A stretch of 64,000 nucleotides of DNA. Origin: Sphaeroforma arctica JP610 (lineage: Eukaryota). A program made the position numbers and the translations under genes. Within the stretch, counting starts at the first letter, position 1; each line of letters begins with the position of its first letter. The notes under the pieces are model-generated. The model was not told the origin of the DNA, ran no database searches, and saw nothing but the letters and a program-made list of their open reading frames with translations. The stretch covers positions 32,873 to 96,872 of the forward strand of contig NW_014040548.1 in assembly GCF_001186125.1 (NCBI RefSeq), read 5' to 3'. Below, piece after piece: positions 17,561 through 64,000 of the stretch.

Positions 17561-17659
17561 GAAACGTCCAGTCGACCACCACGGACCTTTTTGGACCTAA
17601 ACCCAAAATTCACAGGGTAAGCGAGAACGCTTAACTTCTCCGCCTGAGAAACATTAACC

Positions 17660-19839: not shown

Positions 19840-20265
19840 TCACTTAGTGGTACCTGCAGGACCGATGCGACAAACGATGGTGTGTTTCCAAGGTGTCTTC
19901 TTAATAGAATAGGATCCCTGATACAAGAACGTGTCGGTTTCACGGTCGACATAGATAGGCTCGTCTTGTATCATATTAATTAAATCACGTATCCATGGTT
20001 CGGAGCTACGTAAGGGACAACACTGCGTAATGGTAGATTTAGTAATATTAACATAATTTAACAACTGTGCGATAAGTTGCCAAGGTGGGTTAGCCCACGC
20101 ATTATGCTTTGATAAGTCAAGTTGAAAGGCATCATCTTTAGGATGAGTCAACGACCTATAATCAGAAACCTGTTTGTTATGTTCTGCGGCGAACATATCA
20201 ATAGTAAATAGACCCCATCTTGATTGAGCGAGGTTGAACCATTTCTTATTAAGCATCCAATCGGT
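19840..20265 (-). other. Dam-like DNA N6-adenine methyltransferase domain within Gypsy pol (copy A2)
   Basis: DWMLNKKWF...FTIDMFAAEHNKQ...DDAFQLDL...AWANPPWQLI...CCPLRSSEPW, in frame directly after the RNase H end (HLPDILSR). Confidence 0.85.
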
Positions 20266-35900: not shown

Positions 35901-36110
35901 ACCTGCCTTCAATAGCTCAGTGAATGCTTCGGCAAGGAGTATAATCAGTGGGCTATTGGCGTCGGGGCGTCCTATTGTCCGGCGTTCGGTGGAGCGCTCC
36001 ACTACGGCCTTCAGGAGGAGGATGTGGATCCCGTCGGAGCCAGGCCCCTTATCGAGATAGCGTAGTATATCCTCCATTACTTCGGCATATTGTGGAAGTG
36101 ACAAGGGCGT
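32930..36110 (-). mobile_element. 5'-truncated non-LTR (LINE-like) retrotransposon: RT, CCHC motif and long C-terminal region; contains a solo LTR
   Basis: KGPGSDGI, DFRPITH, QAGF, LDITKAYDKV, NGILQGSIVGPQLFIIYMD, LFVDD, KYPGFQL, FKTFILSTATYG. The ORF ends near 33001 and is followed by a short TACATTGTAACA repeat and an AT-rich 3' end. Confidence 0.9.
33710..34303 (-). mobile_element. Solo LTR (594 bp) of Gypsy lineage A2 inserted in the LINE, with 4-bp TSD CAGG
   Basis: TGTA...TACA termini, with CAGG at 33706-33709 and 34304-34307. The empty site GCAGACAGGGCAGAG is present in the LINE copy at ~46935. Homologous to 24569-25123. Confidence 0.93.
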
Positions 36111-37339
36111 ATAGTGGAAATGACACTAAACATTTTTTAGGTGTCGTAAAATACAGCAGAGAAAGATTTAGCGAAGCACGCCTATAAGCTGCTATTAAGT
36201 TCATGCTTTTGGAAGATAGTGTTGTATGTCTAATATCATGGGGTACAAAGTCTATAAGGATTGGTTTGAATTCGACGAAGTTATATCATTGCCTGCACTC
36301 ACACGCCGTAAACCTACAGAGGTCCTATATAAGGACTATCTAGTGTCGGTTGACGAAGATGATCACATATGCAAGACTGGTTTCATGAATGTAGTGCTCT
36401 CTACATCTATTACCAACAATAATGAAAGAATTATAAAAGCGGTGGACTATGTAAGCGGATGTTGTGGATATGATGCAAACCAGAATAGAGGACTTCGCCG
36501 AAGACTCGACAGAGCACTCACGGCTGGCAAACTTAGTGAACCTCGACAAGACATTTATCAAACATCAATTAGATCACCACGTAATCAAGGAGGATATTAT
36601 TAACACACACGGACTAGAGTATGCACTTATGAACCAGGACAAAAATGTACCTATAAAAGATAGTGAGTGCAACGGATGCAAATATTTGCCCTGGGTAGTC
36701 TCCGAAATAAGGGGAACGGTGAGGCGGAGCGCTTTTGATGGTGCCGATGTCCAGCAAGATGCCTTGAACGTGATAGAGATGTGCCGCGATAAGTTGAAAA
36801 TACATCTACACGGGTCATCGCACCAAAGTCAAAACCCAGCAATACCACTATGATAAGATATTCAACGACATGCATGATCGTTGCCTACAGAATAAAGGCA
36901 GTACAAAATTCTTCACACTCATAGACTGGAAAATGAATTTCGACCCCATGTCATTTAGAGAAACAACTCACGAGCACTATGGTCAACGTGGCATGGGCTG
37001 GCATGGGTGTATGTCAATGTGCTTTGAGTACACAAAGTGGGAAAAAGAGGATGACAACGGAGAGATGATACAAAAGCATGGGGCAATATGTCGTATTGTG
37101 TATGGCGACCAAATATTGGAAGGGAAGAAAAAGCAGGATTATTCGTGTGTATATTCGATGATAGAGGCATATCTTTACGCAATCAAGGAACATCTGCCAC
37201 ATACTAAAACCACTGTGCTTGCATCCGATAATGCCGGATGTTATAAATCTGAAAGATCTGTTGCTATTTTTAGGAATACTAAATCTCACCGTCTTAATGG
37301 GTGTTGCATACGCACCTACACCCGAGGTAGTCACTTCTG

Positions 37340-40281: not shown

Positions 40282-43200
40282 GTGGGTCGTCAGAGAGGTC
40301 CGAATTTTGCTGTACAACATGATTGTTTGCATCTATAACTATGTTATCTGGTTGCACATTACCTGGATTATCAATAAGCACGTGCTCAGGTACAAGTACA
40401 GTGTCAATTTGAGGAGGTGGATATTTTGATGCATGCGCATGTGTGTTGTTTGCATCAGATGCTGGAATTGGTTGGTTTTGTGTGGTACTGCTACTATGAT
40501 GGCTTGGTGCAACACCAGTGAGTACCTGTTGTGAGCTATATCGAGTTTCTACATCTTTTTGGTAGATCGCCAATGTATGGCGTGCTAAAGCTGTGCGGTA
40601 GGACCAGATATCAAGATCTGAATATGAGTTTCTATCAGGTGCACTTAATGTTATCGTCTGCGGAGTCATAACTCTTTATGCTTGGTATATATATATGTCT
40701 TTCGCCGTCAGTAAACTCCTCATCACTCACTGTTATTTTATAAACAGTTACCCTACCCGTTGTAGACGGTGTTGCTATCACACTCTTTTAACCTTTCCTT
40801 CCGTTCAAATGTTTATAATCTCGATTCAAACCGATTCTGTTCATATCGTAAATCTATGTGGTGTCATCATACATACATAGGGATAGGAATAATATGGTGC
40901 CTACAACTTGTTTGGCAGCTGCAGGGTCGTTCTTAGGGACCTTGGGCATGATTATAGTACAGGAGTCGCCTTTCTAACCTACTAACCTTAGTAACGTATA
41001 CTAGCACACCATCTCAAATGTTTCGTATACAACAACTTAAAATAGCGCTATCTAACAAACGGATAGTTTGGCGGGCTATTTTTATATACTAATTGAGTTT
41101 GATTAGCTACTAAGAATACATTAAACTTGTCGCGTGGTAGGTTTGAACTCTAGACAGCTGTCAAATGGTTCGTTTTGGCGGGCGTTCTGTACATTATTCG
41201 GATGAGTGAGCAATTTTTCGACGACTACAGATATCGAAATACAAGCTGTATCTGACCTGAAGTCTTTTGATAATTGGTGTATTGATGTATCTTGTTTCAA
41301 CTCTTGAAGTGTGAGATTGTATGGGAGTGTGGCATTGAGAGCTCATGACAATACTCGAACTGGACACGCTTTCCGTGATCCCGCCATTACATATTTTCAT
41401 GTTCCGCATATAAGGAACGATGCTATACCAATTCAACACCTTTCAGGGTGACTCTATCGACTGGATACCATGCAACACGCTCGAAGCAATGGTTGTTTAC
41501 CGACTCATGAACGCTCACTCACACAGAGTTCAATGTGCCGTGTCCTCAGTGGCTGCTCACCACTAACCTAGAGTGTACAGGTTGCCCGCCTGCACGTCAA
41601 GCATATAGATATACTTGTCACCCACGACTAACACTCTTGTCAATCAACGCGTAGCGTCCTACTGTCAATCTTATTTTGATTTCCTTTACAATACAGCGTA
41701 GCATCATATCAATAAAAGTAATACAACACGACATAGCGATCTCCTATATACGAAGCTTGATGCACGTCGAATGTAGGTGTGTCGAATAGTTTGAAAGCTA
41801 TGCGCCTGCTGGGTATCTATCTGATAAGGCTGCGTCTATGTATGAATATTTCATTAAAAAACCGATATGATACCACATCCTCCATCTGTTTGTGTCTGCA
41901 GTACGAGCATGCAGAAAGTGCGCAACCCCGGCCAGACATACCATCGACCAAAGCTGCTTCAACACTGTGCCAGCAGTCGCTGTCGTCGACTCTCACGTTT
42001 CTGAATACGCTTACGACAAGCTGGCACCACGGTCGGATCATCGAATGCATCAGCTGTCGCCCAAGTAAGAGATCCTTCTAGCCAGCGCCCCAGGTACTCG
42101 AATTGTTGAGTCGTCTCCTTGTGGCGATGCGATATGATGTGTCGAAATGTCGATTCCCCTTCTCGCCAAAGCGATTCATCTAGCAGTGGTTCCGTAGTTT
42201 GGTGGGCCAGCCTAATAATGTTTACATTAACCGAACGGTCTTTGAGCTCCGGTCACTTGCTGTTGATCCGAACACTTGAGCCATGCATAAGCCATTTGTT
42301 CCAATTTGCGAATGGTACATGGCGGCGATCAAAGTAAACACTGAACGGAGCAGACTCGTGACGCCGTGATATTCAGGGATTTTGATAAAGTGCAGTGAAC
42401 GGTAAACGCTCATACCACAACTCCGGAAAGCCTACACATAATGCTCGTCCATTGTTTGCTCGTATATAAAAATATGTTTATCCCGACTATAAATGACATA
42501 TGATCCAAGCAGTGGCTTCAAAGCTTTAGCAGAAAGCCCATTGCTTGTGCAAGTATCACGACCACGTCCCCAGTCTTAAATTCAATCATATCGAACTATC
42601 GCATTTAATCGGTGGCATCCACCACGGCATCAGTATACTTGATAGTTTTTCTAACGAAACTTGGCAGGATATTCTTTCCAGCACACATTTGCAAATTTCT
42701 TATGACGTCGCTCGGCAGCGACCGGGGTCTGAGGTTGGTATGACTGAGATGTCTTATCAATAATTCGGAGCACCCGTGTAATAGGGTTGGTATGGCTGAT
42801 ATGTCTTATCAATAATTCCGAGCACCCGCGTAATAGCTTTCACGATACTATTCACAAACTCGTTGCCTTCATCGCTTTGACTCCTAGGAGAAAACTCATG
42901 CTCGCCAAACACCGATACTAATTCTGTCTCCATGGTTTTGCGTCCTTTGTAGGTACTGCGCGAAAAATGGAATACTCCGACACCACATCCAATATATATA
43001 GAATAAATTTGCTTCCTTTCGTTGATACACTCGCCATAATAATGATATCTATTTGTATATGATCCCATGTGTATCGTGCGGTAATATTCATTGAAGGATT
43101 TAACCCTTTCTTCATAGTGCATTCTCTAAGGACATACGACAAAATTTCCGTACCCTTCCGCGATTAGAAGTATTTGGTCTCCCTTGTGACCATCATCTCG

Positions 43201-43449
43201 CATATGTTTATACAGTGGATACTGGCGCCGGATGGCCCTGTTCATGACACTGCCATATCAGCTGTGCCGACGATGACTTCCTCATGCTCTGAGTGGTTGA
43301 TCGCAACAGCCCCGGCACGTATTTCAGGACCTTGTCGAGTATGCCTGGTCATATCCTTCTGTGGCCAGCTCTCTTGAAAACGGGCAGTAGCCTTTTCACA
43401 CACAGGTATCTCTAGACCCAGATTACAGCAAATCGATAGGTTGTCCTTG

Positions 43450-43870
43450 AATCCAGAGGGAGGTACAATGTGTACAACAATGGTATGCTCCCAAAGATAC
43501 TTGCCACAGGCCTGCGAGCCATGTTTCAACCAAGTAAAAGCCTTGCGAGAGATACTTAGCGGCTCCGTCTGCGTCATTTACAGGAGCAATGGAAACCATG
43601 ACGCTCGTGTATTCAACGGCAGGCATATTGTTGCAGATGCTTCATCCGCCAACACCCTGCGTAGTACCTCATGTATCATGCGCCACGGGTGGTTCCTCCA
43701 TGCGCTGTATTAACTTCAGTCAAAACTTGAACGTCCCCTATCCCTGTCGTACCACCAGTACTGTCGAAGTTGGGCTTTGTGGCTAGATGAAAAGGCATCG
43801 ACATCGTACATTGGGTTCAAAATGATTTTGAACTTGGTCATAGAAATCTGGATACAACAACTTCCAACAA
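43450..43870 (-). pseudogene. Decayed Dam-like methyltransferase domain in copy B1
   Basis: CWKL...YDVDAFSSSHKAQLRQYW...AWRNHPWRMIHEVLRRVLADEASATICLPLNTRASWF...ACGKYLWEHTIVVHI across frameshifts. NHPW at 43694-43683. Confidence 0.75.
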
Positions 43871-46669
43871 GATGTATTCGACACAGTCGAGAAGCTAACA
43901 TCTGACGTACTCTCATGAATGCGACTCCACTTGTCCGGTAACTTGTCCAATTCACCTGGTACATGTGTATTTGTGAAATAAATTGTGTGCAGCATACTGA
44001 TCAATTTCAACTGTGTGTTCATATAAACGAGCTGCGTGTGATCCGTGTGTATGAGAACTCGCTGTCCGATTAAGTGATCATGGAAGTGCACCAGTAGATA
44101 TATACGAGCTAGCAGTTCCTTTATGGGTGTTGCATATGTTTGCTGGGTCTTTTCAAGTATCTTTGAGGAGAATATAAGAATTTCTTCGGCAATAGCATAA
44201 CCACTTGCTTTATTTCCAACTCTAGTGGCACACCATCTACAGTAAAGTTCAAACGGATCGCCGACACGATCGCTTCCTTCATCTGATCCCATGTCAATTG
44301 ATGTTCTGGTTCTCAACTTTCTTCAATCGATACCCTTTGGTTTAAGATTAGCGAACGCACACATAGGGACTTGACCTTATGCGCAAAGTTGAAGTAATTG
44401 CTCGTGTAATAAATTTGCCTGTCTTAATCCGGAAGCAATATCCTTCTGACATCTTGGTATTAACCAATCGATTGAACGTTGCTGTTTCTCATGAACAACG
44501 ATAAGACTCTTAGCAGACACCTTCCTTCCGAGTATAAATATATCTTCCACAGAAAAGTGACACTTCTGATTCAGTTTTAAATTGTTATCCGTTAACAATT
44601 GAATGATCTCCTGAACAGTAGCAATGTATTCCTCGTAGTCATTCGACGCAATGATAAGATCATCGACATGGCATTGTACATTCAATCTAGCCATCAGGTT
44701 GCTGATCGTACGCTGAATTGTGAAGTGAGTGTTGTCAACCAAACTATTGTTGGATATCCCATGTAAATAAAGCATATGCTGAGAGTCAGCATGTACAGGC
44801 AATCGATGGTATGGTACCGACAAATAAAATGTTGTGCAATATTGCTTAACCTTCATGCTGATGATCTCGCTGACCTTTGGTAGCGTGAATTGATCCCCTG
44901 AAATGAGTGCATTGAGCTGTTGTAATTCAAACACACACATACTTTGATAAGCTCTACTGACGATATAAAGGATGGTACAGCCAACAATAGAAGGTTCACA
45001 ATCGATACCAAGGTCCGAAGATTGGTGACCAACTCATGTTCCCATTTGTGAACCCACATTGATACATGTGGTTTATATTCATCGGATACGAAAATTCGTG
45101 CCATTCTCCGGCGTGTACAATTGTATTTACAAATATTTAATAGAAGATTGTTTGTTTGTTTGTTCTGTTTTTGCATTTTCAATATATCTAAATTCAGATT
45201 ATTCGATTATTTTGCATTTTACAAATACCTACAATTGCGTTTCAACGTATACCAGGGTTAAAACTGTATTTAATACGTTTGAACGTTCATACTCCATAGT
45301 CTACGTTCATTGTATACCTCTACTATGGGAACCCGCTGTTTTTACTTTAGGCATGTTCTTAGAGTCTCATGAGATGTACAAAATATACCCTGTGTGCAAC
45401 GCGCGTGTAACTTCTAAGCGTCCACTCGCCTTTGCTTGCATCGTTGGATTAGTACAGATGGATGACTTGCATTTTGTGTCATTTTCGCAGCTGTGGATTC
45501 AGTGATGCATGCATATTTTTATGTTCTGTTGCTTACTGCATTTGTGTTCACGGCCTACGAGTCTAATAAGTAGCGATTATGATCCGCAGAGGGAATTTCT
45601 CCGGTGTGCTAGCGACTTTAAAAACATACTGATTCTCCTTTATTTTTGTGTAAAGTGAATGTGCACGTTGGTGACGTTGTAGCTTGTCACGAAATATATT
45701 TGCTGCTGCTGTCTGATCTTGATTGCGCGGATGTCGCGAAATAAGCTGTTTTTATCACTGTGATCTCCGATATGCAGACAAATTTCGCGAGTGTTGTTTA
45801 CACGTTGCAAAAAAAAAAACAACAGTTCCCGTCCAAACAGGTTTTGCCAAGGTACGATGCTGTAGTCAGAACCGAGTAACGCTCCACAGCCCAACCAAGT
45901 TGAATTCTGGTCTTTCAAGAACTTTTCCTTAAAGATACTCTGTCTTAAGTTATAAAAATAAAAGTACAAGAGTAATATTTTACACGGATCGTGGGGTTAC
46001 TGCATCTAAAAGCGTAATAGCTTATGACTAAAAACAAATACGTTTATGAAGAATACCAAAACTTTTCGCGTCTTTTCCGCCTAAGGTGTGGATGCCTACC
46101 AGTATACTAGGTATCTATCCTAATAGCAGTTTACGGTTTTCTTTTCCCTCTTATCATAGGTTTGACGAAGCATATAATTGCCCGTGTCGTCAACGATCGA
46201 TGGGTACAAGTGACAGCCCCGCCTGCCACCCAATAATATTTCGCATGTTCCGCCTTCTACGTAATATTGCTATGCACGTACTTTCTTCCACGTATTGATG
46301 CTATGCACGGTCCGCCTTCTACATAACAATGTTGTACATGTTCCGCCTTCTACGTGATACTTCTACACATTGGTCCGTCTGGTACGTAATAATGTTATCC
46401 AACTCAACACTACTCAGGGCGACTATACAACACGCTTGAGGCTGCGGTTGCTCACCGAATTATAAGTGCTCGCTCAAAGTTCAATGCGACGTGTCCTCAT
46501 GGTTGCTCGCCTCGGAGTAAGAGTAAACAGGGTGCTCGCCTGCACTCTCAGCATCTATATAAACATACAGTCTATTATGTCGAATGAGTGCCATGCAACA
46601 CGTTCTGCCCTGCAACACGCTCGTGAAGCTGCGGTTGCTCACCGACTCTAAAGTGCTTACGCAAAACTC

Positions 46670-47190
46670 AATGATTTGGTTTGAACCGATATTTGGAAAT
46701 AGTACTTCAACAGCGTGATTAGCCGGGGTATGGGGAATATCTGTTGATGTGTCATGGACGGGTTGAGGGTGCGGTGGTTCTTCTACATGCTGGAGAAAAG
46801 ATCCAAAGTGTTCGTACCTGTAATTGCTGGAGGAGGTTAGGGTTAATGGGCGGCATTTTCGGGCCTACCAGGATGCGTCGAATCAGTTGTTAGATGCAGG
46901 TAAAGTGGCTTGTAGTGAACTTGTGGCTACCGAGGCAGACAGGGCAGAGACAGCCGTCGGTGCGGTAGTCGAGCAATGTGAACATGTACGTATTCGTTAC
47001 AATCATAGCACAGAGCCGGATTGGTGTAGACTCGAAGCAGCGATTGAAGCTGTCGTGTCTGGCTGTGTCTCGGTTTGAGGTTGGCGGTTTACCAATAACC
47101 AGTTGGTAGTAGTATTGGCGCCGGGCCATTGCCGCGATCTCCTTGTTGGACCAACGTTTTGTTGAGTTCTTCCTGACGTCGTCACAGCGT
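46670..47190 (-). mobile_element. Internal fragment of the non-LTR family (CCHC region)
   Basis: Matches ~33405-33709 joined to 34304-34540 without the solo LTR. Encodes CLCPVCLGSHKFTTSHFTC. Confidence 0.88.
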
Positions 47191-47661
47191 TGTCGTATGT
47201 CATCTAGCTCGGACAAGTCTGGGGCCATTCGAAGATTGATCGGTTCCAGTAGTTTATCCATAACATTACGACTAATCTCCGGGAATGAATATAATAATCA
47301 AGTTAAGCCTAATTTCAGCTCTCCCATAATATCCATACCCAGTATAATATCAATCTGGTAAGGTCATACGTTCAAACGTACAACCCTTAGTAATAGCTGT
47401 CTAGTATCGGACCTTTGTTGCGTGTGTCTTGCCCAAACGTGGAGTCCGAAAAGCCTTGTCCGCCAAATAAATGTAGCTAACATTAGCTGGTAGTGTGACA
47501 GATTGCTGTGCCTTATCTGCGGATGCCTGAGTGATGACTGAACGGTTCGCCTCCGTGTCAACGAGGGTGCGCATGTCATGGCCGTTCACTTGTGAAGTAA
47601 CATATACACGGGGTTCGGCAGTAAATAATTTATGAACAAAGTCAATAGATGTACATTCATT

Positions 47662-48201
47662 ATGTGGAAAAGTCACTAAATGTACATTCACCTATTTTGT
47701 CGATGAAAACGTACTGAAATATTGATCAAATATGTACAAATGTACATTTAGCTACAATTACATTTTTTATAATATGTACATTTAGTGACTTTATTGTGCA
47801 AAATTTGTTTAAATTTAAATCCAAGAGCCTTCGGCTATATCAATTTTTGACGAAATATTTTGATGAGGGAGGTAATGTTGTCTTTTATTATTTTTTGTTT
47901 GTACATGCTACTTCATTAAGCTTATCTCACTGCCTAGTGCGCAACTCACGTGGTCGATGACGCTCTTTTACGGGACCATATGAGAATTGTATTACGATCT
48001 TACTATATAAATCAGCTATAGCAGGAGTTGACATACTTCTAATATAATATATATAGCGTTACTTTATACATTGTAATAATCGCAAGGTTCCAATGTCTTG
48101 CTTCCCTTGTAGACATATGAAGCCTGCACAGCATTTAACTCGTTTGATTTGTGTGCAATACATCTGTGTATTTGAAATAACGTATAGAGCATGAAAAGTT
48201 T

Positions 48202-50805: not shown

Positions 50806-51679
50806 GTCCCGGTTTTGCATCACATCACATCAAGTCGGAAATTTGTGTGTCCGGTTCCCCAGCGAGACACATTTTTGTATGGCGCTACTTGAGGACAAAG
50901 GTGCGACCAATTCTGCTTGTAGCACATCAGGCAAATAAATAACATGTTATAAACATGACTACCCCCAGGGGGTGAGCCGATCTCGGTAGGCTTCGCCGTT
51001 TTAGACCCGTTCTCCTCGCCGTTTTAGACCCGTTCTCCTCGCCACACTTCATAGAACAGTTAAATATGACAGTGGTAGTAGTCCTAAATTAGTATTTAGT
51101 ATAAGAATGCAGTACGAATTAATGACATCAGAACGATCTAGGTCGTATACCCTTCCGTTTTCAAAAATCGACCAATGCAATTGAAGTTTCCAAAAAATAT
51201 TTTTTATGGTCCACTAGGTATGGGAATGTCCGCTATTTGAAAGTCTCCAGTACAGTACAAAATTTTCAATTTTGACAGAATTTCCATTCACGTACAAAAT
51301 ATGCATCACAGCGTTTATGACCCTGCGGGTGATGAACCAACCAACCTAATTTACTACTTGAATTTCACTGGGCTGAGCTGTTTCATATCGATAGCCCCGC
51401 AAGGTAGATTGCAAGTTGATACTGTCCATTCCTGCCATGAGTATCAAGGAGCCCAACGTTGTGACTGGATTTGGTTTTGCTATTTACATAGAACTATCAC
51501 ATCACGTTCCAACGTCGTTTGAACCGTACCATTGTCGTGAGTACTATTTTTGTCACTCTCTTGGAAGTTCGCAAAATCTGCTACAAAAACTAGCCAAAAA
51601 AAAATCATCACTAGCACTAGCATTCAGAAGCCATTCCGGTCAGCAACTCATTAATTATGTTTCAACTCATTAATTATGA

Positions 51680-53694
51680 GCGAGGTTGGGGGTGAGCCAA
51701 TGCCGCACCAGACCACAGATGCACTCGGTATGTGCTGGCTAGCCTGGATCGGAAGTACCATAGACGGAACCAGCAAGCGCGATGACTTGATTTGTACCGA
51801 AATTTGGATGTAGTACTTCAACAGAGTGATTAGCCGGGGTATGGGGAACATCTGTGGATGTGTCAGAGACGGGTGAGGGTACGGTGGTTGTTCTACATGC
51901 TGGAGAAAGGATCCAAGGTGTTCGTGGAGGGTCCAGATACCGTGGAAGTCATGGCGCTCCTGTAATTGTTGGAGGAGGTCAGGGCCAATGAGCGACAGTT
52001 TTGGACCTACCAGGATGCGTCGGATCAATTGTTGGATGCAGGTAAAGTGGCTGGTTTTAGTGGCAGAGACAACCGTCAGTGCGGTAGTCGAGCAATGTAA
52101 ACATGTACGTATTCGTTACAATCATAGTACAGAGCCGGATTGGTGTAGGCTCGAAGCAGCGGTTGAAGCTGTCGTGTCTGGCTTTGTCCCGATTTTGAGG
52201 TTGGCGGTTTACAGTAGTATTGGCGCCGGGTCATTGCCGCGTTCTCTTCGTTGGACCAGCGTTTTGTTGAGTTCTTCCTGATGTCGTCACAGCATTGGCG
52301 GAGGGCTACATGGTTGGGTGTACGCCCGCCCGTGGTTTTATGTACAGTTTATAGGTAAGCATAGATACTGTACGGGAAGCGCAGTGATGTTTTGTCGTGG
52401 GCCCAGGCGGGTTGCGTCAGAGGGTTGAGTGGATTTGTGCTGGCCATTGAGTTGAGTTGCATTCCCAGGCAACCTCCGAGGTAGTCCGCAAATGATTGCG
52501 CGGGGAGCAGGCCACAAAAGTGGAGTGAGTTTGTTTGATGTTTGGGAAACCTAGGGTATTTAGTGCCCGTGATGATGAGTGCTGCTTGGATGAGTGCTAG
52601 TTATAGTATTCGAACAGGGGGGTCACACAGTGCATCCTTCCACTGAGCCCAGGCAACAATTTTCGGGCCATATGTAGCCATAGATAGAATGAATGATTTG
52701 AACAGCACCAGTCGGTTGCCGGGGTGTCGCCAGCTGAAGCCATGGAAGTTGTCATAAACGCGGAAAGAGGCGATACCCACACCAGGGGCAATACTGTAGC
52801 CAGGAATTTTATATGTCTGGCGAGGTTGATCCCTGGTATTTCATGAGAAAGTGGGAACCCCATATATTTGGAGCATTTCGGCTTGGCATGTGTGGGCGCC
52901 ATCTTCAGAGGGGGGGTAACGTGTGTTCCAAAGTGTGTCTGCGAGCGGTGATAAGCTTACCATTTATACGGAAGGTTGGCGCCGCGTGTTGCAAGTCGGT
53001 AGATCGTACTCAGGGTTTAATGACATCCTGTTCGAGGCCAGATTTGCGTCCCCTTGCATCAATGTCGTCTAAAGACCTGTAGCAGCGGGACTGGAAGGTT
53101 GGCGCCGCGTGTTGCAAGCCGGTAGATCGTACTCGGGGTTTATTGACATCCTGTTCGAGGCCAGATTTGCGTCCCCACTCATCAATGTCGTCTAAGAAGA
53201 CCTGTAGCAGCGGGACTAGTTTGGGGGCTTGGATTCGTATGTCGTCGACAATCAAATAGGAGCGGATGAGCTTGAGCCGAAATTGTGCTAGCGTAACAAC
53301 TAATGAATTCATGTGGGCAATAAAGAGCTGGGGGCCGACGACTGAGCCTTGTAGGATGCCATTCGTTCTATGAAATAGGGGCGAGAGCGTGCCGCTGTGG
53401 TATATCACTTGGATAGGGACCTTCTCAGTTAGCGTGCGGCGGCAGTTGATCCAGCTTTCGGGCATACCAGCGTGGCGCAGGAGGAGTACCCATAGGCGTG
53501 GGAGAGCAACCTTGTCATATGCTTTGGTAATGTCCAGACAGACGTCTTTCGTTCCACTGTTCCTCTTCCGACTGTGTCTCAGATTCCATGGCGGTGAGTG
53601 CTTGGGTATGACAAGAGTATCGTGATTTGAAGCCAGCTTGGGTATTATGGGTAACAGAGCCGGGGTGGCTCGTAATCTGATTAAGAAAGCACTT
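51680..53694 (-). mobile_element. Second long copy of the non-LTR (LINE-like) family, truncated at both ends, with an internal ~115-bp duplication
   Basis: Colinear with 33310-35775 (NGILQGSVVGPQLF, LIVDD, KYMGFPL). 52973-53088 is repeated at 53093-53208. Confidence 0.9.
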
Positions 53695-53737
53695 ATAACA
53701 TATGTCGTAAATAATTACGACTGAAATATCACGCAGT

Positions 53738-54590: not shown

Positions 54591-55328
54591 CAGTCAACTG
54601 TAAACAGACTAAAGTATCTGTTTTATATTAGAATATTTGAAACATGGTATTATTATATTATGTATGTACCTAACTCTTTTTTCTTTCTATATTGTCTTTT
54701 ATTTCTAGAAAAATAATGAATAAATGAATAAGTACAAATATCAACAGTCGTAAATTTATATCTTGTCGTTTTTTCTATTGTGCGATTATATCGAGTCAAA
54801 ACCAAACTTAATACATTACGACTCGTGTTTAAAATTTGTGATGTCAACCTTTCTAATTCGTTACTATTTATAGCGAGCTATGTGTATTGCTCAAGCTATA
54901 TTATATTCCAAATGTGTGTCCTAATTTGGCATATGTCTCGTGTTTGACTATAAGTCTAATTTGTTTGCTTGACGTTAGACGTTTAAAAGTTCAGTTCCAT
55001 ACTCTCTATAATAGCCTTGTGGTAAACGAACGCTTCAATAACTGTATCGCAACGTTCTCCCTCCGTAGAGAGGGAGACGTTGTTCATTTATTAGTAATTG
55101 TAAAATTAGTGACTCTAAAAGTGAGTCATAAGTCATGTGCTGTAATAGTCAGCAAAAACCAAATTTATCAGATTATTCTGATAAACTGTAAAAAAACTAT
55201 AAGAACTAAAATAGACAACTAAAACCTAAGTACTTGTATTCTGACCACAACCCCCCCAAACTGAAGCACTGACCAAAAAGCAGTGTGCCAGTTTTAGAGA
55301 TAGTAAGGAATACCCAAGTAACTTAGTT

Positions 55329-55786
55329 GCTGGCATTTATCCTCTGAGAGCTAGAACAGTGTACTGGCATTTATCCTCTGGGAGCTAGAGCAGTGTGCTG
55401 GCATTTAACCTCTAAGAGCTAGAGGACCCGAGGTGTACGTCTCGAGTAACCCGTCGTTTTGACTACTTGAGACAACTGTTCAGTAGTGACACCATATATG
55501 CGTTCTGGCAAGTACAGTATAGAACTATACCTGTGTCGGAGAAAAACTGCCAATAGCAGAAACCATGAAAACCAGTTAACCCGATGATTCCAAACCGAGC
55601 CCAAGGAATTGTCTAGTAGATATCGCTCTTTTATACTCCAGAGCTTGAGTGGCTGATTTATACTCGGAAGCTAGAGTGGCTGGTTTATACTCGGGAGCTA
55701 GAGTGGCTGGTTTATACTCGGGAGCTAGAGTGGCTGGTTTATACTCGGGAGCTAGAGTGGCTGGTTTATACTCGGGAGCTAGAGTG
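55329..55786. repeat. Two related tandem arrays in the 3' untranslated region of B2: ~3x34 bp (55329-55424) and ~6x27 bp (55630-55786)
   Basis: Units CTGGCATTTATCCTCTGGGAGCTAGAGCAGTGTG and GAGTGGCTGGTTTATACTCGGGAGCTA. Confidence 0.9.
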
Positions 55787-57284
55787 CTCGACGATTACGG
55801 TTCGAGCGCACCGTCCTACCGAGTAGGCATATCTGAAGATAAAAATTTAGATTTGGGCACGTTGGCGTTTACGTGTCCGTGTCTGCGAAGCTTTGTGGTA
55901 GACCGCGATATCGTTGGCATCATCAAAAGCCGCCGATGTTTTCCACGTTGGATCGCCTTCACGCCATCGCACCAAGTATTCCAATTTCCCTGTTCCATCA
56001 TTAGTACGGTGTGCAATAATGTGGCGAAACTCAGCACCTCCTTCTGTCCACAATTCGTCGTTAAGTGGTGGGTCTGTGCGCCTATGCACTAACCGGAGGA
56101 GTTCCACCCGTACCGGTTTGTGATTGAATTCTGGAGGGGCGGATCCATCTTTATTCGCTAACTCATATCGTTGTCCGATCCTGACCTTCACCATATACGG
56201 CCCAAACAGTGGCCGCATTGCCTTAGTCGTTCTACCCTCCGATCGTATCGTAACCACATCGCCTTCGTCGAAATGGACCAAGTCATGAGCGTGTTGGCGG
56301 TCAAATGTCTTCGTAAGTTTGCCTGTATACTTCTTGGTAATGTGGTGGAGAGTCGGCAGTATAGTATCCTGCAACTGGCCTAACCGTTGTGCCCAGGTGT
56401 CGTTCGTCATCGGCTGGGTATCCGGTAAGTCACCAGTGAAGTCGGCAAATGGTACATGACGGCGGCCAAAATATACACTGAACGGCGCGCTCTTGTGACG
56501 TCGGGATATCCGAAGGTTCTGGTAGAGCATCGTAAACGGAAGGCGTTTGTCCCATCGTAGAGGAACTCCCTCACAGCATTGTCGAATGGAACGTGTATTC
56601 TCCTTATGACGGCGTTCAGCGGCACCCAGTACATGGCGGTGACACCTTGTGTAGCATACCCACTTCTTGGACCAGTAGCTCCACTATCTTGTTAGTTAAT
56701 TCATTCCCCATGTCCGTCTGGATCATACGTGGGAAACCATGCTCGCCAAAAACTTATATTAGTGTCTGTGCCGTTGTCTCCTTCGTCTTGTCCGGTGTCG
56801 CTCGAAGGATTGAGTAGCCTGTAGCAATGTCCAGGACGTGAAGTATATAATTATTCTTTCGTCTGGACTCAAGTGGTATCGGTATATAGTCGACTTGAAT
56901 ATGGTCCCACGGTTAGCGCGCGTCAATGCTAATCATCGGGTGGAAACCTTTACGAAGATTATCCTGTCCCAAACATGTGGCGCACTGCCGTTTGACTTCC
57001 GTTGCTAACTCAAGTGCGCCCGGCCACACATGACCGTTCTGACGGAGTTGTTAAACTGTATCAGCCGCACCATGATGTCCTTGTTCGTGGTGCGCTTGTG
57101 TGAGTCGCGTACGGCATTGTTGTTCTTCTGGCGTCGCCCGCTCAACTGCCGGTTGACCTTCTGCATCCGCCATTGCCACCGAGATCTCTCGCGCAGTATC
57201 TAACCACATTACGTACGTTGTGTGTTTTGGTTCTGCATACCCAAGTCGCTGTGATAACAGCGGGTCCAGTTTGAACCCGTTAGG

Positions 57285-57690
57285 GGGTCCCACTCGTGTA
57301 ATCACTATGTGTCCCCATGGCGTCTTGCCACAGGCATACTTAGCATACTTGAGGAACGTGTGTGGCGTTCATGGGACCAGTACTGATTCTGATTGCAACA
57401 ACTGTTTGAACAGGTCAAACCATGGTGCCCTTGGTGCCCATGGCAGACACACCATTGCCCTCGCACCATCGGTCCTTATCTTGCGTAACATTCCATTTAT
57501 CTTTTCCCATGGTGGGTTCATCCATCCATCGACTGTCGACCAGTCGTGGGCAAACGCCCCTTCCCCGTCGTCTTTAGTCCAAAATCGAGGAAGCTGAGCG
57601 TTAGACGGGTCCGCAAATACATCTATATTGTTCGGACCGAAGTGTTGTTGCGCTTGTTCAAAGTAACTAAGGAATAACTGCCAACAGTCT
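57285..57690 (-). other. Dam-like DNA N6-adenine methyltransferase domain within Gypsy pol (copy B2)
   Basis: DCWQL...FGPNNIDVFADPSNAQLPRFWT...AFAHDW...WMNPPWEKINGMLRKIRTDGARAMVCLPWAPRAPWF...(one in-frame TGA at 57371-57369)...CGKTPWGHIVITRVGP. Confidence 0.88.
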
Positions 57691-60600
57691 GTGTACAGTA
57701 TTTCAGGTCCGTCCTGCTCCGCTGTCCCCTCATTTACTTTGCTCAACATGTCCGGAAGCACGTTTGTCTCTCCTGGTATAGGTGATATGGTAAAGTTGAA
57801 CGGTGCTATAATATGGTGCCATCTCTGGAGCATCGGATTAAGCTTGAGCTGTGTATTCATATACACCAGGGCCTTGTGGTCCGTAAGACCGCAAACCGTT
57901 GCCCATCCAAATGTTCCCTAAAATGTGTCAGCCCGTACACCAAGGCTAGTAACTCTTTCATTGGTGTAGCGTAGTTCTGTTGCGCATGGTTCAGAGTCTT
58001 GCTAAAGAACATCAAATATTGTTTCTTCCCGTCGACCCATTGGAATAACGCTCCCCCCAAACCGTAATCGCTAGCATCGGTTTCCAAGTTCAATGGTATA
58101 CCGTCGACCGGAAAGTGCAACGCCACGGCATTGACAACTGCATCCTTCATCGCCTGCCACGCCTGTGCATGTCTTTCCTCCCAACGATCGCCGATCAACT
58201 CCTTCGGTTTGAGTTTGCAAAACTCGTGCAAAGGTGCAACCGTGTTTGCGAAGTTGAGAAGATGTTCATGAAGATAATTAACCAATCCTAAGGCAGAGAC
58301 TATGTCGTTGTACCGTAGTGGGGTAGGCCAGTCGATAAGCTTGGTCTGCTTCTCATGATCAATATCTATGCCTTGTGCCGACACCTTTTTTCCTAGGATC
58401 ACCACTTCGGGAATAGCAAAGTGGCACTTGGCGGGGTTGATCTTAAAACTGCGGTATGTTAAACGTTTTCGAATATGTTCGTCATAGTCGTCGCTGGCAA
58501 TAACTATATCGTCGATATAGTTGTGGACCGGCAAGCCGTCCAGTATTGTGCTCAAGGTTTGCTGGAACTGTTGCGTGAGCACATGGAGTCCAAACGGCGC
58601 CGATGTAAACGAGTACTGATAACGCTCGTGTGTAAGCTAAACAGATATTGTGAATCGGGATGGATCGGTAGCCTATGATATACCGCCGATATTTCCAGCT
58701 TAGTGTAGTACTTCTTACTCTTGAGGCGAGAGATAAGTTCGTTGACCTTGGGAATCAAGAACTGGTCGCCCGGAATAAGCGCGTTGACAGCACGCATATC
58801 TAAACATACGCGTACCTTCTTCACGTTCTCTTCTGCAACAAACGTCGGGCCCGTAAGGAGCGGGAGGTTAACAGTCGTCGGTGTCGTCCGCTTCGTGATC
58901 ACCAAATCCGCCAACCACTTCTTCACCTGCTCGTCCACGTATGGTAGCCACCGGTCGGATACAAAGTTATGCGTTGATATGCGCATGTGCATCGCCTGTT
59001 CACGGGTTACCGGAATGGTAACTTCGCTCTCTTCCAGACGACATCGCGCCTTGTCAGCAATCTGCGCATTCGCCTCTAAATCCTGTGCCAGCCGTTGACG
59101 TGCATCGGCGGGTTCCGTCGTGCTCGGTGCCTGTCGTCGTGGGATGGGTTCGAGGAGCTCGTCGAGTTCTGTGGGGTCTATTGGTGCAAGTGGAGATCGG
59201 ATGCCGCCTATGTATAGACCTAAGCCTTTCAACATATCTTGTCCCATTATGATGTCTATTTCTGCCGGTAAATTCATCAATTCCAGTGACCCGTCGATAA
59301 TCTTGGTCCCATACCGAATGGGTACCGCTTCCATCGTCCCCAGTCGAGGAGTTCGAACCGCCTTGTCAGCTAATTATATGAATGTCCCATGTGGTGCTGG
59401 AGTTATTGGGCGGCCGAGGAGGTCTGCGGATGTCTGTGAGATACAACTTCTGTTTGCTCCCGTGTCTAACAATGCTTTGAACGTAAGTCCATTAACTTGC
59501 ACTTGAATATAAACTCGGTCATTAGAAGACAGTAATGGGTCCTGTATTGCCATCACTTCCCTAATAGTATTAACAAATGTGAAGCTCATCTCCGACTCAG
59601 AAACCCTCACATACACCGTGGCCCTGGTCTGGTTCCAGTATTGTGTGCTCGAAGTCTTCCGTGAGTATCGTGTTGATGTGTACCTCTGTAGCTGCTGATG
59701 GTGGTATGAAACTTTCGTCCTTTGTAATCGCGTTCACCTGTACATGCGGAGTCGGGCGTGTAGTGACCAAGTCTTTGCCCGGGTTGTTGGACTGTCCCTG
59801 TCCTAAGGTTGGAGCTGCGGACGGTCTGTGTACCGGTTGTGCGTCTCGTGATGTGCGGTTGGTGTCATACGGCCGCGCCCTGCCGTCCGTACTCCCTGGG
59901 GGCTACGCTCGGAAATGGTGACTTCGCAAAATATGACGTAAACCTGGCGGTGCTTGTGCCTGACATCCAGCACACGTTGTAGGTAATGTCGGCTGGGGTC
60001 GCTGTGCCCAGTTCTGTGACTGTCGTCGAACCGTCTGCGGGTTAGTGCGGCTATTGGTGTAGTCACGAGCCCCATTACTTGGTGGACCTTCGCGATTATT
60101 ACGGTTCTGAAATCGCGCCGCATTGCGCTGCTGTGCGTCCTGAATGTCGGGACTCAACAACTGTAGAGTGAGTCTTCATTTACTGCCATTTGGGATGCAA
60201 CTGTAGAGTGCGTTCATACGTACGGCCGTTGAGAGCTTCCTCGAACAGTTGAACAATGCAATAGTTTGATAAATTCTGTTGGAAATCTTCATCTGTCTGG
60301 CATCGTTCACGTGCCCTCCTGCTATTCTCCATGAGCTGTGTCATTTGTTCCATGATGGGGGTATGCATGTTTCGACTGTGGCCCTTGGCAAGCTTACGAA
60401 ACGCGAGATCAACAGTGGCTTGCGTCTCATGTGAGCAAATCCGTTCGATTTGTAGTTGTGGCGTCCACATCTTCAATCGTTCAGAATTGTCACGTATGTA
60501 ATCCAATGTTGACTTCTCAGCCTTAAAGTAAGATAATACCTTGTGGAACCATGTAAGGTTCCAACTCTCATCTAACCCTGCGATCTGCGCGTTCTTAAAA

Positions 60601-63567
60601 GCCTCCAGTAGAGCCCCTCTCGTATCCCGTTCTGGGATGTCATGGAGGTGGTATCTACTCGAGGGCCAGTCGGGCCATGTACGTGGTGATGGTACCGGAC
60701 GCTATTCCACTGGACGGGACTCTAGTGTGGCTCGAAATGTTTCAATCGCACCCCTAAGGGCTTCAGCTCGAGCCGTATTATTATCCTCTATTGCTTGGCA
60801 TAACTCGTCGCTCAGGTGTAGTATACGTGCATGTAACCTCTGTCGACTCTTTTCAATACTCGCCGGTGTGGGTGGAGGTGTGAGCGACGTTGTCTCCGTT
60901 TGCTTGGGAATCTGTACATGCGCACTGGCAGCTTCCCTCTCGAACGACTGTCGCTGTTGATGTTGGCGATAGGTCGTGCTCATCTGGACTTACCTATTCT
61001 TGAGCGCTTCCTTCTCATGTGGGGTTTGCGTGGCCAACACTTGCTCACGTGCGAATTCTTGGAATGACGGAGCCTCTTCTAGAGACGACAAGGTATCTTC
61101 CTCCTCGGAGAGTTGACCTTCTGACCCAGGTGGTTCGTACCCGAGGCCATGGTGTTGTTGTGAACGGCCTTGGATCCGAAACGTGGGATTGTCCTCTCTA
61201 CCTTGTGCCATACGCTCCCGTTTGTGTGGACTAGTCGACGCTTCGTTTGCGTATAGCAAGGTCGTGGGTCGTTCGGACGATGTACGCTGCAACCTCTGTT
61301 CGTACCTCTCTAAGAGCGACGGTTGTTGGGCCATACGCTCGGTTAGCTTCTGTGTCGACGACTGGCCCCGCGCCGTACCCTTGTTGTTGGAACGACGGCG
61401 GTCACGCCTGCGCTTGTGAGGTGGTAGGCGTGTCTGCTCGATACCAGAAGATAGGGCTCCAGAGATACCCGAAGACGAACGGGAAGGCAGTCCATCACTA
61501 GCTACCTGTTTACTAATAGTGAACTGCTCCCTGTCCGCACGCAGGTCGGAATTTCCCTTGGCTTCTTCCTTAATTACAACGTCTTCTTGCGTTAGGCTGA
61601 TAGCCCCCCCCTGGGTGTCTTGGGTGCCTGTCTATCGGTAACCGCTGCTTGGCTATGAACCGCTTTATCCTGTGGTTCCATCCGTTCTTTCTCAGCTCGG
61701 TGGTCGGTATAGTCCGTGAGAGACTCGCGGCGCTTAGTTCCTCGTCGGTCTATATCGTCTTCCTCCCGACGTTCAGGGGTCAGATGTTGCTGCCGACGGC
61801 TTTGACGTAGGTTGGACATAATAGTACGTTGTGTGGATCAATGGAGGTTTGGAAATGTATGTAGACGTCCTCGAAATAGGTCGAGTATAAATACTCCTCC
61901 GCCCTAGAGATCGTCTCTCATCTCAACAAGTCTCGACACTGTTTGCCTGGACAGGTCTATGCCGTGTCCCACACTACGTCCATTTTAAGGTGGTAACTAG
62001 TACATGAGTCCCACCCATGCCTTCAACAGACCATAGTGTCGTATGTTCTTCGCCGAAACACCCGTCGGGGTACACCCTATACTCCTTGTATGCTACTCCA
62101 CCCTTCTGGTGGAGTTACACTCTTCTTCGGCGATCAATCCTTACTCTTTAGAGAGCTCCTCAGCTCTCGCCTTAATCCCCTTTCTTCGCTAATCTTACTC
62201 CTTCGTGCCACTGCATGTGCCGTTGTGGTATCGGTATGTGTCTGCCTATTGTAGACCTCTCGTGCTCTACGGCCCCTCTGTAGCTTCTAGATCCTACCTA
62301 GTACTTTCTTTTGAGCAGCTCTACCACGAAGTTCTGCTCAGACAAGTAGATCCTAGTGCTTCTGTGGCTTCTACTACGCCTTGTACATTTTCTACCTAGA
62401 ACTTCCCCATTCTACCGAATATCATACCTGTCTATGTACTGTAACTTCTACAGTGATTCTTGATTTGCGGCGATTCTCTGACTGTGCCATTAGTCTATCT
62501 ATTTCCATGATTCTACTGTTAACCCCTATAGTCAATGTACCTGGATGCTAATTAAGTGCGTACATACTCTTTTATCCCTTTTATCGCTCGATTTCGTTTA
62601 TGAAAGAAAAAAATTATCCCGTAAACCCGCGAGGAATGCACCATTCTAAGAATAACATAGCATTCATTGATAATTGTGTACGCTATCTGTTCTTTGTGCC
62701 CTTACTTATATCTAACCACAGTTTAGTCCCTCTTTGTATCTGCAAACTAGGGCTCTGTGAACTACTTATCTCTCTCCTTTGTCTATGCCTAGAGTTAGGT
62801 CGTATTTCCTATAATTATTATATCTTCTTGCCCTGCGTTGTTGTAGGAGCCACCTTCTTGTTTCTAAAACCAACTTCTTCTATGTACACTACCCTTTAGA
62901 TCTTATACGCTGTGTATTGGTGCCATTTCTCTAACGCAATTCCTATTTAGCAACTTCTAACTAAAATATTTCTCTAACAGGGTTCTAACTTGGTATCTAG
63001 CCGACAATATCACCCATGCTGTCTGTTTCTATAACATAAAACCACAAACTATTCTTCACCATCGTTTCTACTTAACTGATTGTTAGAGTACAATGTAGTA
63101 GACTTTAAATAAAGTACAAATGTATGTATTTATTTCTGACTTCANNNNNNNNNNNNNNNNNNNNNNNNNNNNNNNNNNNNNNNNNNNNNNNNNNNNNNNN
63201 NNNNNNNNNNNNNNNNNNNNNNNNNNNNNNNNNNNNNNNNNNNNNNNNNNNNNNNNNNNNNNNNNNNNNNNNNNNNNNNNNNNNNNNNNNNNNNNNNNNN
63301 NNNNNNNNNNNNNNNNNNNNNNNNNNNNNNNNNNNNNNNNNNNNNNNNNNNNNNNNNNNNNNNNNNNNNNNNNNNNNNNNNNNNNNNNNNNNNNNNNNNN
63401 NNNNNNNNNNNNNNNNNNNNNNNNNNNNNNNNNNNNNNNNNNNNNNNNNNNNNNNNNNNNNNNNNNNNNNNNNNNNNNNNNNNNNNNNNNNNNNNNNNNN
63501 NNNNNNNNNNNNNNNNNNNNNNNNNNNNNNNNNNNNNNNNNNNNNNNNNNNNNNNNNNNNNNNNNCA

Positions 63568-63999
63568 CTAATCGTCTGGCTGGACCCTCGTCTTAGCCGT
63601 TTGGCCCTGCTGGCCCTGTCCTTTTATTTCTTGAACTTCTAATGCCTGCTCCTGATTCGGTTGCTCCTTGGGTTCGTTCGTGGGCTCTTTGGGTGCGGTC
63701 GTAGTGTCAAAATCTGTCTTCGATCTTGAAGTCTCAGTAAGGTTAGGCCGGAGCCTAAATCGTTCGAGCTGTTTGGCCATACTTGTTCGATTTAGCCTGA
63801 AGCGTCCATTGGTCGCCTCAGATTCCCTTTGCTGATCCCATCGGACGTGCTGATCGCTCAGTCTCGGCGTCTCTTCCTCTTCACTGTTACTATTTGACAT
63901 CAAGGATGGCATTGTGGCACTAGCGTCACTACTGGCGTACCCACTGTCGTCTTCTACCGCGTGTGGATTGTGAAAGATTCCGTCATTTTGCAGTGCCAT
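63568..63999 (-). CDS. Possible coding fragment: low-complexity, acidic/polar, function unknown
   Basis: 143-codon ORF between an N gap and the window edge, with coding-like GC content and no recognisable motif. Confidence 0.25.
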   Translation of the reverse strand: MALQNDGIFHNPHAVEDDSGYASSDASATMPSLMSNSNSEEEETPRLSDQHVRWDQQRESEATNGRFRLNRTSMAKQLERFRLRPNLTETSRSKTDFDTTTAPKEPTNEPKEQPNQEQALEVQEIKGQGQQGQTAKTRVQPDD

Positions 64000-64000
64000 C

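What the first reader, a model, noticed from the sequence alone, without database searches (positions are those of the whole stretch)
55847..58582. Ty3/Gypsy chromovirus-like retrotransposon carrying a Dam-like DNA adenine methyltransferase between RNase H and integrase
Seen: after the RNase H end (NVLPDMLSK) the same frame continues into ~135 aa containing IDVFADPSNAQLPRFW (SAM-binding motif I-like), AFAHDW, WMNPPW (catalytic motif IV, 57518-57507) and VCLPWAPRAPWF. The frame then runs on, with isolated in-frame stops (57371, 57053), into an HHCC-DDE integrase. A chromodomain (FRHIIAHR...EYLVRW...TW) closes the integrase ORF, followed by a PPT. Established: DxFA...NPP(W/F/Y) is the signature of phage Dam-like amino methyltransferases (Pfam Dam, PF05869-like). 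Such a domain is a known feature after RNase H in DIRS1-type tyrosine-recombinase retrotransposons, while the standard Ty3/Gypsy pol is PR-RT-RH-INT(+CHD) with no MTase. Inference: this is an integrase-encoding LTR retrotransposon that packages its own DNA 'writer' with a chromatin 'reader'. It may methylate its cDNA or the insertion site to mimic host marks or evade silencing. I do not know this as a standard described architecture, but prior mention cannot be excluded.
Basis: partly seen in the sequence, partly recalled or inferred. Interest (0 to 1): 0.92.

Follow-up and report, generated by a model that had tools for sequence, protein, structure and literature searches.

The report
Decayed Gypsy retrotransposon with adenine methylase
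This is a broken copy of a Gypsy-type jumping gene, in a single-celled relative of animals, that carries an adenine-methyltransferase-like domain between RNase H and integrase; the domain is real and likely marks the element's own new copies, but this kind of element was already described in a 2026 preprint that studied the same species.

Summary
Observation confirmed; novelty refuted. The minus strand holds PR-RT-RNase H-Dam-integrase-chromodomain. Pfam Dam hits at 8.5e-10; the model (pLDDT 91) folds as an N6-adenine methyltransferase. RT and Dam trees give matching subclades, away from DIRS, and intact relatives have the same order, so it is no nested insertion. A neighbouring host gene is identical to the Sphaeroforma arctica protein. 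bioRxiv 10.64898/2026.05.21.726589 (whole text read) describes DAM-LTRs, including in S. arctica, with more 6mA and expression; its E. coli activity test was negative. This scan also noted the architecture in other genomes. Two small additions: (1) the preprint says ichthyosporean DAM-LTRs lack chromodomains, yet this clade carries a divergent one (profile hits HP1 at 1e-8), here missing two of three methyl-lysine cage residues; (2) the closest solved fold is the RNA cap methylase PCIF1/CAPAM, not T4 or E. coli Dam, so the substrate is open. This copy is dead (stops, frameshifts, no 5' LTR found). In passing: Copia polyproteins with the same domain, not found in print.

The parts
59903..61631 (-). 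likely gag region, broken by stops
   Evidence: inferred from position upstream of protease; no Pfam gag hit; multicopy in sequencing contigs
59236..59529 (-). aspartic protease (LLDTGAN 59472-59452), stop at 59376
   Evidence: Pfam gag-asp_proteas 4.6e-7; start from alignment to P0059; end approximate
58390..58998 (-). reverse transcriptase core (YIDD 58519-58508), frameshift near 58636-58618
   Evidence: Pfam RVT_1 in two pieces; best solved relative Ty3 RT 4ol8, 3e-24; limits approximate
57738..58183 (-). RNase H, frameshift near 57884
   Evidence: Pfam RT_RNaseH_2 5e-27, RT_RNaseH 1e-18
57282..57704 (-). Dam/PCIF1-type N6-adenine methyltransferase domain: DVFA (within 57626-57600), NPPW 57518-57507; stop at 57371 private to this copy
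   Evidence: Pfam Dam, PHROG 111, model and fold searches, read contigs
56186..57098 (-). integrase: HHCC, DDE core, GPY/F motif; stops at 57053, 56915, 56756 and a frameshift
   Evidence: Pfam rve pieces, colinear with P0059, motif places
55847..56038 (-). divergent chromodomain and basic tail, ending at the Pol stop
55630..55786 (.). 27-bp tandem repeat, 5.8 copies, in the 3' untranslated part
55328..55424 (.). 34-bp tandem repeat, 2.9 copies
55251..55257 (-). likely polypurine tract (G7)
   Evidence: one base before the likely LTR
55018..55249 (-). likely 3' LTR, 232 bp, with 6-bp inverted ends beginning TG and ending CA
   Evidence: low-depth flank contigs end at 55044 in three runs; no second copy found, so inferred

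Best explanation
This is a dead copy of a multicopy Ty3/Gypsy LTR retrotransposon family of the ichthyosporean DAM-LTR lineage, whose Pol carries an N6-adenine methyltransferase domain between RNase H and integrase, and the domain in intact copies likely methylates adenines in the element's own reverse-transcription intermediate (RNA:DNA hybrid or single-stranded cDNA). Shown here: domain order, family identity, fold, intact DxFA and NPPW motifs, co-inheritance of the domain with RT, and a divergent chromodomain. Inferred: Pol is packaged and cleaved, placing the methylase beside RT in the particle; the marked cDNA integrates and would recruit host AMT1 maintenance at ApT, giving a transcription-permissive copy (the preprint's model). 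The chromodomain likely helps tether the integrase to chromatin, but probably not through a classical methyl-lysine cage in this subfamily. Confidence in identity about 0.95; in the hybrid/cDNA-methylation mechanism about 0.5.
For: Pfam Dam 8.5e-10. Model pLDDT 91.4, pTM 0.86; all 4 Foldseek matches at E<=0.001 are the adenosine N6-methylase CAPAM; VIA top Z 9.8, rmsd 3.0, 136 aligned. Closest intact relative P0059 is colinear over 59529-55859 at 33-46% identity and sister in the RT-RNase H tree (100/96) and, with P0060, in the Dam tree (97/92). The clade holds Abeoforma whisleri P0058 and S. arctica SARC_07150 = P0060. NPP[W/F] kept in 16 of 18 clade rows; mean Dam identity 0.41 against RT 0.45, integrase core 0.36, flanking linkers 0.16-0.20 over 8 intact proteins. 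All covering contigs in 4 of 4 runs differ from this copy at stops 57371 and 57053, and contigs bridge RNase H-Dam and Dam-integrase. Preprint: DAM-LTRs of S. arctica have more 6mA-marked insertions and higher expression than other LTRs. [quoted passage not shown]
Against: No activity has been shown: the preprint's E. coli expression gave no 6mA gain. Iyer et al. call DIRS MTases likely inactive (passage). 2 of 18 clade rows have CPPW. The 6mA enrichment is a correlation and is measured at ApT, the host AMT1 site. The proteins compared were found by Dam similarity, which inflates Dam identity. The chromodomain is only as conserved as the protease (0.23). dN/dS was not computed.
Confidence: 0.55

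Rival explanations
1. The domain is a PCIF1/CAPAM-like RNA methylase that marks the element's own RNA (cap-adjacent or internal adenosine) to help stability, translation or packaging; the 6mA on insertions follows from their transcription.
For: Best fold match is CAPAM in two programs (Z 9.8 against 7.4 for T4 Dam and 7.1 for E. coli Dam); related DIRS domains hit Pfam PCIF1_WW weakly; Iyer et al. place DIRS MTases in the PCIF1 clade; no DNA activity in E. coli. The preprint's main text never names PCIF1 or CAPAM.
Against: Sequence hits are to the phage DNA methyltransferase families PF05869 and PHROG 111, for which the fold library may hold no solved member; Z 9.8 is modest and a shared fold shows no function; the domain lacks CAPAM's large helical part (target 482 aa, 136 aligned).
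Confidence: 0.2
2. The domain is kept as a non-catalytic nucleic-acid- or protein-binding module of Pol.
For: Negative assay; Iyer et al.'s view; CPPW in the intact 1400-aa P0004; unchecked earlier notes report motif-less versions in other genomes.
Against: DxFA-like and NPP[W/F] motifs kept in 16 of 18 clade rows at about 40% overall identity.
Confidence: 0.15
3. The domain methylates double-stranded DNA at the insertion site or finished cDNA, like a phage Dam.
For: Phage Dam family match; it sits next to integrase; 6mA enrichment on insertions.
Against: No 6mA on E. coli chromosomal DNA; at about 140 aa it has no evident separate target-recognition domain (the preprint also notes missing parts).
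Confidence: 0.1
4. The domain is a separate nested insertion, a DIRS fragment or an assembly chimera.
For: DIRS elements carry the same domain after RNase H (P0006-P0008).
Against: Single-ORF intact relatives with DDE integrase; congruent trees; bridging contigs; two further window elements with the domain at the same place.
Confidence: 0.01

Closest known systems
Ichthyosporean DAM-LTR lineage (Fernandez-Moreno et al., bioRxiv 10.64898/2026.05.21.726589)
   Same: Ty3/Gypsy-like LTR element with a PF05869 Dam domain and Asn-Pro-Pro triplet; host S. arctica; groups with A. whisleri proteins.
   Different: The text says this lineage lacks chromodomains; here a divergent one is present (Pfam E 1e-3, under their 1e-5 threshold; one search shows it clade-wide). 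The text does not give the Dam position for this lineage; figures and supplements were not seen.
Chlorophyta DAM-chromovirus-like and Chloro-Ochrophyta DAM-LTR clades (same preprint)
   Same: Dam plus chromodomain in the first; Dam between RT and integrase in the second.
   Different: Other hosts; described as independent captures. P0020, a Dam-first element with a canonical chromodomain, lies in another RT group.
DIRS1-type tyrosine-recombinase retrotransposons
   Same: RT-RNase H-Dam order and the same domain family.
   Different: This element has a protease, a DDE integrase and a Ty3-like RT.
PCIF1/CAPAM cap-specific adenosine N6-methyltransferase
   Same: Closest solved fold.
   Different: 12-16% identity; no WW or helical domain; substrate here untested.
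Group II chromodomains of plant chromoviruses (Novikova et al., PMC3350952; author name recalled)
   Same: Lack of Y24 and Y48 equivalents with W45 kept (passages).
   Different: That paper knew group II only from plants; relationship not tested, probably parallel loss; 5 of 9 clade tails keep an aromatic at the Y24 place.

Membership tests
Ty3/Gypsy LTR retrotransposon | pol order PR-RT-RNase H-integrase | tested here: met
Ty3/Gypsy LTR retrotransposon | HHCC-DDE integrase with GPY/F motif | tested here: met
   Pfam rve pieces; motifs; tail model's best Foldseek hit is Ty3 integrase 7q5b, E 1e-3
Ty3/Gypsy LTR retrotransposon | RT related to Ty3 and apart from DIRS | tested here: met
   Ty3 RT 3e-24 is the best of 9 solved matches; 6 DIRS-like rows split off at 100/100 in a 33-row tree
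Ty3/Gypsy LTR retrotransposon | two direct LTRs, PBS, PPT and target-site duplication | tested here: inconclusive
   likely PPT and 3' LTR found; no 5' copy in 61000-64000 (score 21, shuffles mean 20.5, max 27); an N gap lies at 63145-63565
DAM-LTR, ichthyosporean lineage | PF05869 Dam domain at E<1e-5 in an LTR-type Pol | tested here: met
   8.5e-10
DAM-LTR, ichthyosporean lineage | Asn-Pro-Pro catalytic triplet | tested here: met
   NPPW 57518-57507
DAM-LTR, ichthyosporean lineage | Dam domain in one clade with S. arctica and A. whisleri elements | tested here: met
DAM-LTR, ichthyosporean lineage | absence of a chromodomain (descriptive statement in the preprint) | tested here: not met
   divergent chromodomain found; it would be missed at the preprint's 1e-5 Pfam threshold, so this is read as a correction, not an exclusion
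DAM-LTR, ichthyosporean lineage | 6mA enrichment and expression of insertions | not testable with these tools
   no modification data; no run on record as RNA
Chromovirus | chromodomain at the integrase C-terminus | tested here: met
Chromovirus | RT in the chromovirus branch | tested here: inconclusive
   no named references in the tree; the element lies outside the 100/99 group that holds P0012, P0020 and P0069 (Chromo plus SH3_Tf2-1)
Group I (methyl-lysine-binding) chromodomain | aromatic cage Y24, W45, Y48 | tested here: not met
   Ala, Trp, Gly at these places by alignment to HP1
DIRS1-type retrotransposon | tyrosine recombinase instead of DDE integrase, no protease | tested here: not met
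   protease and DDE integrase present
EpiLTR (Dam + DNMT + chromodomain) | additional C5 DNMT domain | tested here: not met
   no DNMT hit in 14 frames scanned; no minus-strand frame over 83 aa between the Pol stop and the likely LTR
DNA N6-adenine methyltransferase (EC 2.1.1.72) | methyl transfer to adenine in DNA | not testable with these tools
   fold and motifs fit; published heterologous test negative

The most novel reading that the evidence does not exclude
The retrotransposon 'Dam' domain is a minimal PCIF1/CAPAM-type enzyme that methylates the element's own RNA or RNA:DNA intermediate, not chromosomal DNA, which would explain the failed E. coli assays; it travels with an overlooked cage-deficient chromodomain in ichthyosporean elements and has also been captured by Ty1/Copia elements.
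Probability: 0.3. Interest if true: 0.55.

Novelty: already known. Interest (0 to 1): 0.2.

Why it matters
As an architecture it no longer surprises specialists: it was reported in May 2026, in this species. What remains useful: the function of the retroelement Dam-like domain is still unproven, and the CAPAM-like fold points to an untested substrate (RNA or RNA:DNA hybrid); the chromodomain corrects a statement on one lineage and suggests that chromodomain-less DAM-LTRs are over-counted at standard Pfam thresholds; and Copia elements with the domain would add another independent capture.

Tried and rejected
Whole genome: none held, so no genome-wide copy census, LTR dating or dN/dS. Word-indexed search with P0001 among longer proteins: 0 of 105 candidates scored. 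Metagenome locus scan with P0001: 42 pattern matches, none confirmed. Sequence search of PDB with Dam profiles: no hit for A1, only chance hits for A2. Expression: no RNA holder listed; runs X16-X18 are only guessed to be RNA and are contigs, so not used as evidence. 5' LTR and target-site duplication: not found; the high-depth repeat at 62881-63140 has no similarity to the likely 3' LTR. First RT tree left the finding out through a frame slip and was a quick tree; replaced. The tail profile A3 contained canonical chromodomains from outside the clade, so it was repeated with clade rows only (A4). In one search one of the 7 non-window rows dropped out through a duplicate name, so that profile rests on 6 rows. 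The tail model's Foldseek search had no match at E<=0.001; the chromodomain matches there (rmsd 1.3-1.9 over about 50 residues, E 0.06-0.09) are supporting only. One paper on chromodomain targeting was not held. Earlier-findings search by sequence: nothing. No complex prediction was run, as no binding claim is made.
Full report
Observation. The minus strand from about 61600 to 55018 holds a decayed LTR retrotransposon. Pfam on 14 open frames gives, in order, aspartic protease (4.6e-7), RVT_1 in two pieces, RT_RNaseH_2 (5e-27), the end of RNase H and Dam PF05869 in one frame (8.5e-10, 39 bits, cut-off 28.1), two rve pieces and a weak Chromo hit (1e-3, below cut-off). The copy is dead: stops at 59376, 57371, 57053, 56915 and 56756 and frameshifts in RT, RNase H and integrase. 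No purine tract follows the Pol stop directly. Two tandem arrays follow, then a G7 tract and a 232-bp stretch with 6-bp inverted ends, next to which low-depth flank contigs end; I read this as PPT and 3' LTR. No 5' LTR was found.

The domain is a true N6-adenine methyltransferase fold. A model from a 62-row alignment has pLDDT 91.4 and pTM 0.86. Foldseek's 4 matches at E<=0.001 are all the cap-specific adenosine methyltransferase PCIF1/CAPAM, followed by KsgA/Dim1. VIA-align over 48,161 chains ranks CAPAM first (Z 9.8, rmsd 3.0, 136 aligned); M.TaqI has 7.6, T4 Dam 7.4, E. coli Dam 7.1. By sequence it matches phage DNA methyltransferases (PHROG 111, 2e-8).

It is a fixed part of the family. 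A two-sequence profile matched 5,583 cluster representatives at E<=0.001; the best 150 were listed and 28 of these were scanned with Pfam. Single-ORF proteins with RT-RNase H-Dam-integrase include P0004, P0005, P0057, P0058, P0059, P0065, P0067, P0069, P0070, P0073, P0075, P0077 and P0158. P0059 is colinear with the finding from protease to tail at 33-46% identity. In an RT-RNase H tree of 33 rows the finding is sister to P0059 (100/96) in a 12-row clade (98/99); the 6 DIRS-like rows split off at 100/100. A Dam tree of 53 rows (23 of 48 DIRS-like rows used) gives the same subclades inside an 18-row clade (99/97). NPP[W/F] is kept in 16 of 18 rows, and over 8 intact proteins Dam is about as conserved as RT and RNase H (0.41, 0.45, 0.41) and more than the adjoining linkers (0.16-0.20); these proteins were found through Dam, which biases the figure. 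In public read contigs the whole element is covered far deeper than its flank; all covering contigs in 4 of 4 runs differ from this copy at the stops 57371 and 57053; contigs bridge RNase H into Dam and Dam into integrase, one of them about 24 times as deep as the flank contig in run X6 (3631 against 149), a rough hint of many near-identical copies. The window holds four more related pieces; two show the Dam domain clearly and one a fragment.

Host and prior art. A deoxyhypusine synthase exon in the window is 100% identical in protein to Sphaeroforma arctica and 91% to CFRG5560T1 (a Creolimax gene name, recalled). The closest Dam relative P0060 is S. arctica SARC_07150; P0056, P0058 and P0061 are from Abeoforma whisleri. 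The first literature search found bioRxiv 10.64898/2026.05.21.726589; I read its whole main text, not its figures or supplements. It reports DAM-LTRs as a first description, with chromodomain-containing LTR elements as 30.9% of DAM-TEs, five lineages, one of them in Pirum, Abeoforma and S. arctica; more 6mA-marked insertions and higher expression of DAM-LTRs in S. arctica; no 6mA gain on expression in Dam-deficient E. coli; and a model in which 6mA is laid on RNA-DNA intermediates and maintained by host AMT1. Earlier notes of this scan report the architecture in other genomes (unchecked, not used as support).

The chromodomain. The preprint says the ichthyosporean lineage lacks chromodomains. 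Against that: 13 of 13 PDB sequence matches of the finding's tail are chromodomain proteins (best 6e-5); the Atlas's nearest named clusters are Chromo (0.89-0.90); a profile of 9 clade tails with no canonical member hits HP1 at 1e-8, and 58 of its 59 matches are chromodomain proteins by name; the model shows three strands and a helix and overlays CBX chromodomains at rmsd 1.3-1.9, though at weak E-values; a profile without window rows finds this tail and three others among 1,215 window frames at E<=6e-5. The A. whisleri protein P0058 has such a tail. By alignment to HP1 the finding has Ala, Trp, Gly at the cage places Y24, W45, Y48; 5 of 9 clade tails keep an aromatic at the first place, 8 of 9 the Trp, 0 of 9 the third at the exact place. 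This is the pattern of group II retrotransposon chromodomains (passages of PMC3350952), so methyl-lysine reading is doubtful. The tail is weakly conserved (0.23). Chromovirus membership by RT is not shown.

Mechanism. Most likely (about 0.5) the domain in intact copies methylates adenines of the RNA:DNA or single-stranded cDNA intermediate inside the particle, and host AMT1 then keeps the mark; all steps are inferred. The CAPAM-like fold fits: human PCIF1 acts in the order ssRNA > hybrid > ssDNA > dsDNA (abstract of PMC9178792), and Iyer et al. place DIRS MTases in the PCIF1 clade, while calling them likely inactive (passages of PMC4738411). The preprint's main text does not mention PCIF1, CAPAM or Copia. 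Rivals: an RNA methylase (0.2), a non-catalytic module (0.15), a dsDNA methylase (0.1), a nested insertion (0.01).

Verdict. Real, well supported, already known; interest 0.2. Papers seen: the preprint (whole main text), PMC5890265, PMC4738411, PMC3350952 and PMC11673190 (passages), PMC9178792 (abstract); the rest only as search listings. Subscription journals, Repbase, GyDB and REXdb were not searched, and the preprint's supplements may already show the chromodomain-like tail or Copia cases.

Noticed in passing
proteins P0107 (1248 aa) and P0086 (522 aa), unnamed metagenome records: Ty1/Copia polyproteins with the same Dam domain (NPPF) placed just before RVT_2; in P0107 the order is Pol_BBD, rve, Dam, RVT_2. 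They group together in the Dam tree (99/95), away from the finding's clade. Copia is not mentioned in the preprint's main text and two paper searches listed no such report. Possibly an undescribed independent capture; host and LTRs not checked.
   Followed up: partly
window 41962-47900 (-): Decayed sister element with the same Dam position and a chromodomain tail 46-48% identical to the finding's; RT is interrupted by other repeats.
   Followed up: partly
window 18558-24390 (-): Second DAM-LTR family copy; RNase H and Dam (WANPPW) in one open frame 19843-20580; 78-90% identical to the intact 1400-aa P0004.
   Followed up: partly
window 15823-17557 (+) and 37519-39271 (+): Two more decayed relatives of P0004/P0005; the first shows no RNase H-Dam part, the second a Dam fragment; both end in a very divergent chromo-like tail.
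   Followed up: partly
proteins P0073, P0075, P0158, P0069: RNase H-Dam-integrase elements with a canonical chromodomain (Pfam 1e-12 to 1e-13), from unnamed records; P0069's RT lies in a different group, which suggests another capture.
   Followed up: partly
proteins P0090 and P0101: Long polyproteins with an Exo_endo_phos domain, then Dam, then RT, RNase H and integrase zinc finger; an odd mix of LINE-type endonuclease family and LTR-type domains.
   Followed up: no
protein P0074 (Pirum gemmata): RNase H-Dam protein that groups with the Copia Dam domains (98/86, long branches), not with the S. arctica/A. whisleri clade.
   Followed up: no
window 811-2205 (+), 5122-5956 (+), 9083-10951 (-): Host genes: deoxyhypusine synthase; a likely ALKBH8-like gene (label from recall, no Pfam hit); a 623-aa low-complexity frame without family.
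   Followed up: partly
window 33000-36125 and 51600-53714 (-), pieces at 17658, 46500-47300: Repeated non-LTR-type RT remnants at about 90% identity; type read from motifs, not tested.
   Followed up: no
window 62881-63140 and gap 63145-63565: A high-depth repeat unrelated to the likely 3' LTR sits upstream of the element next to an assembly gap.
   Followed up: no
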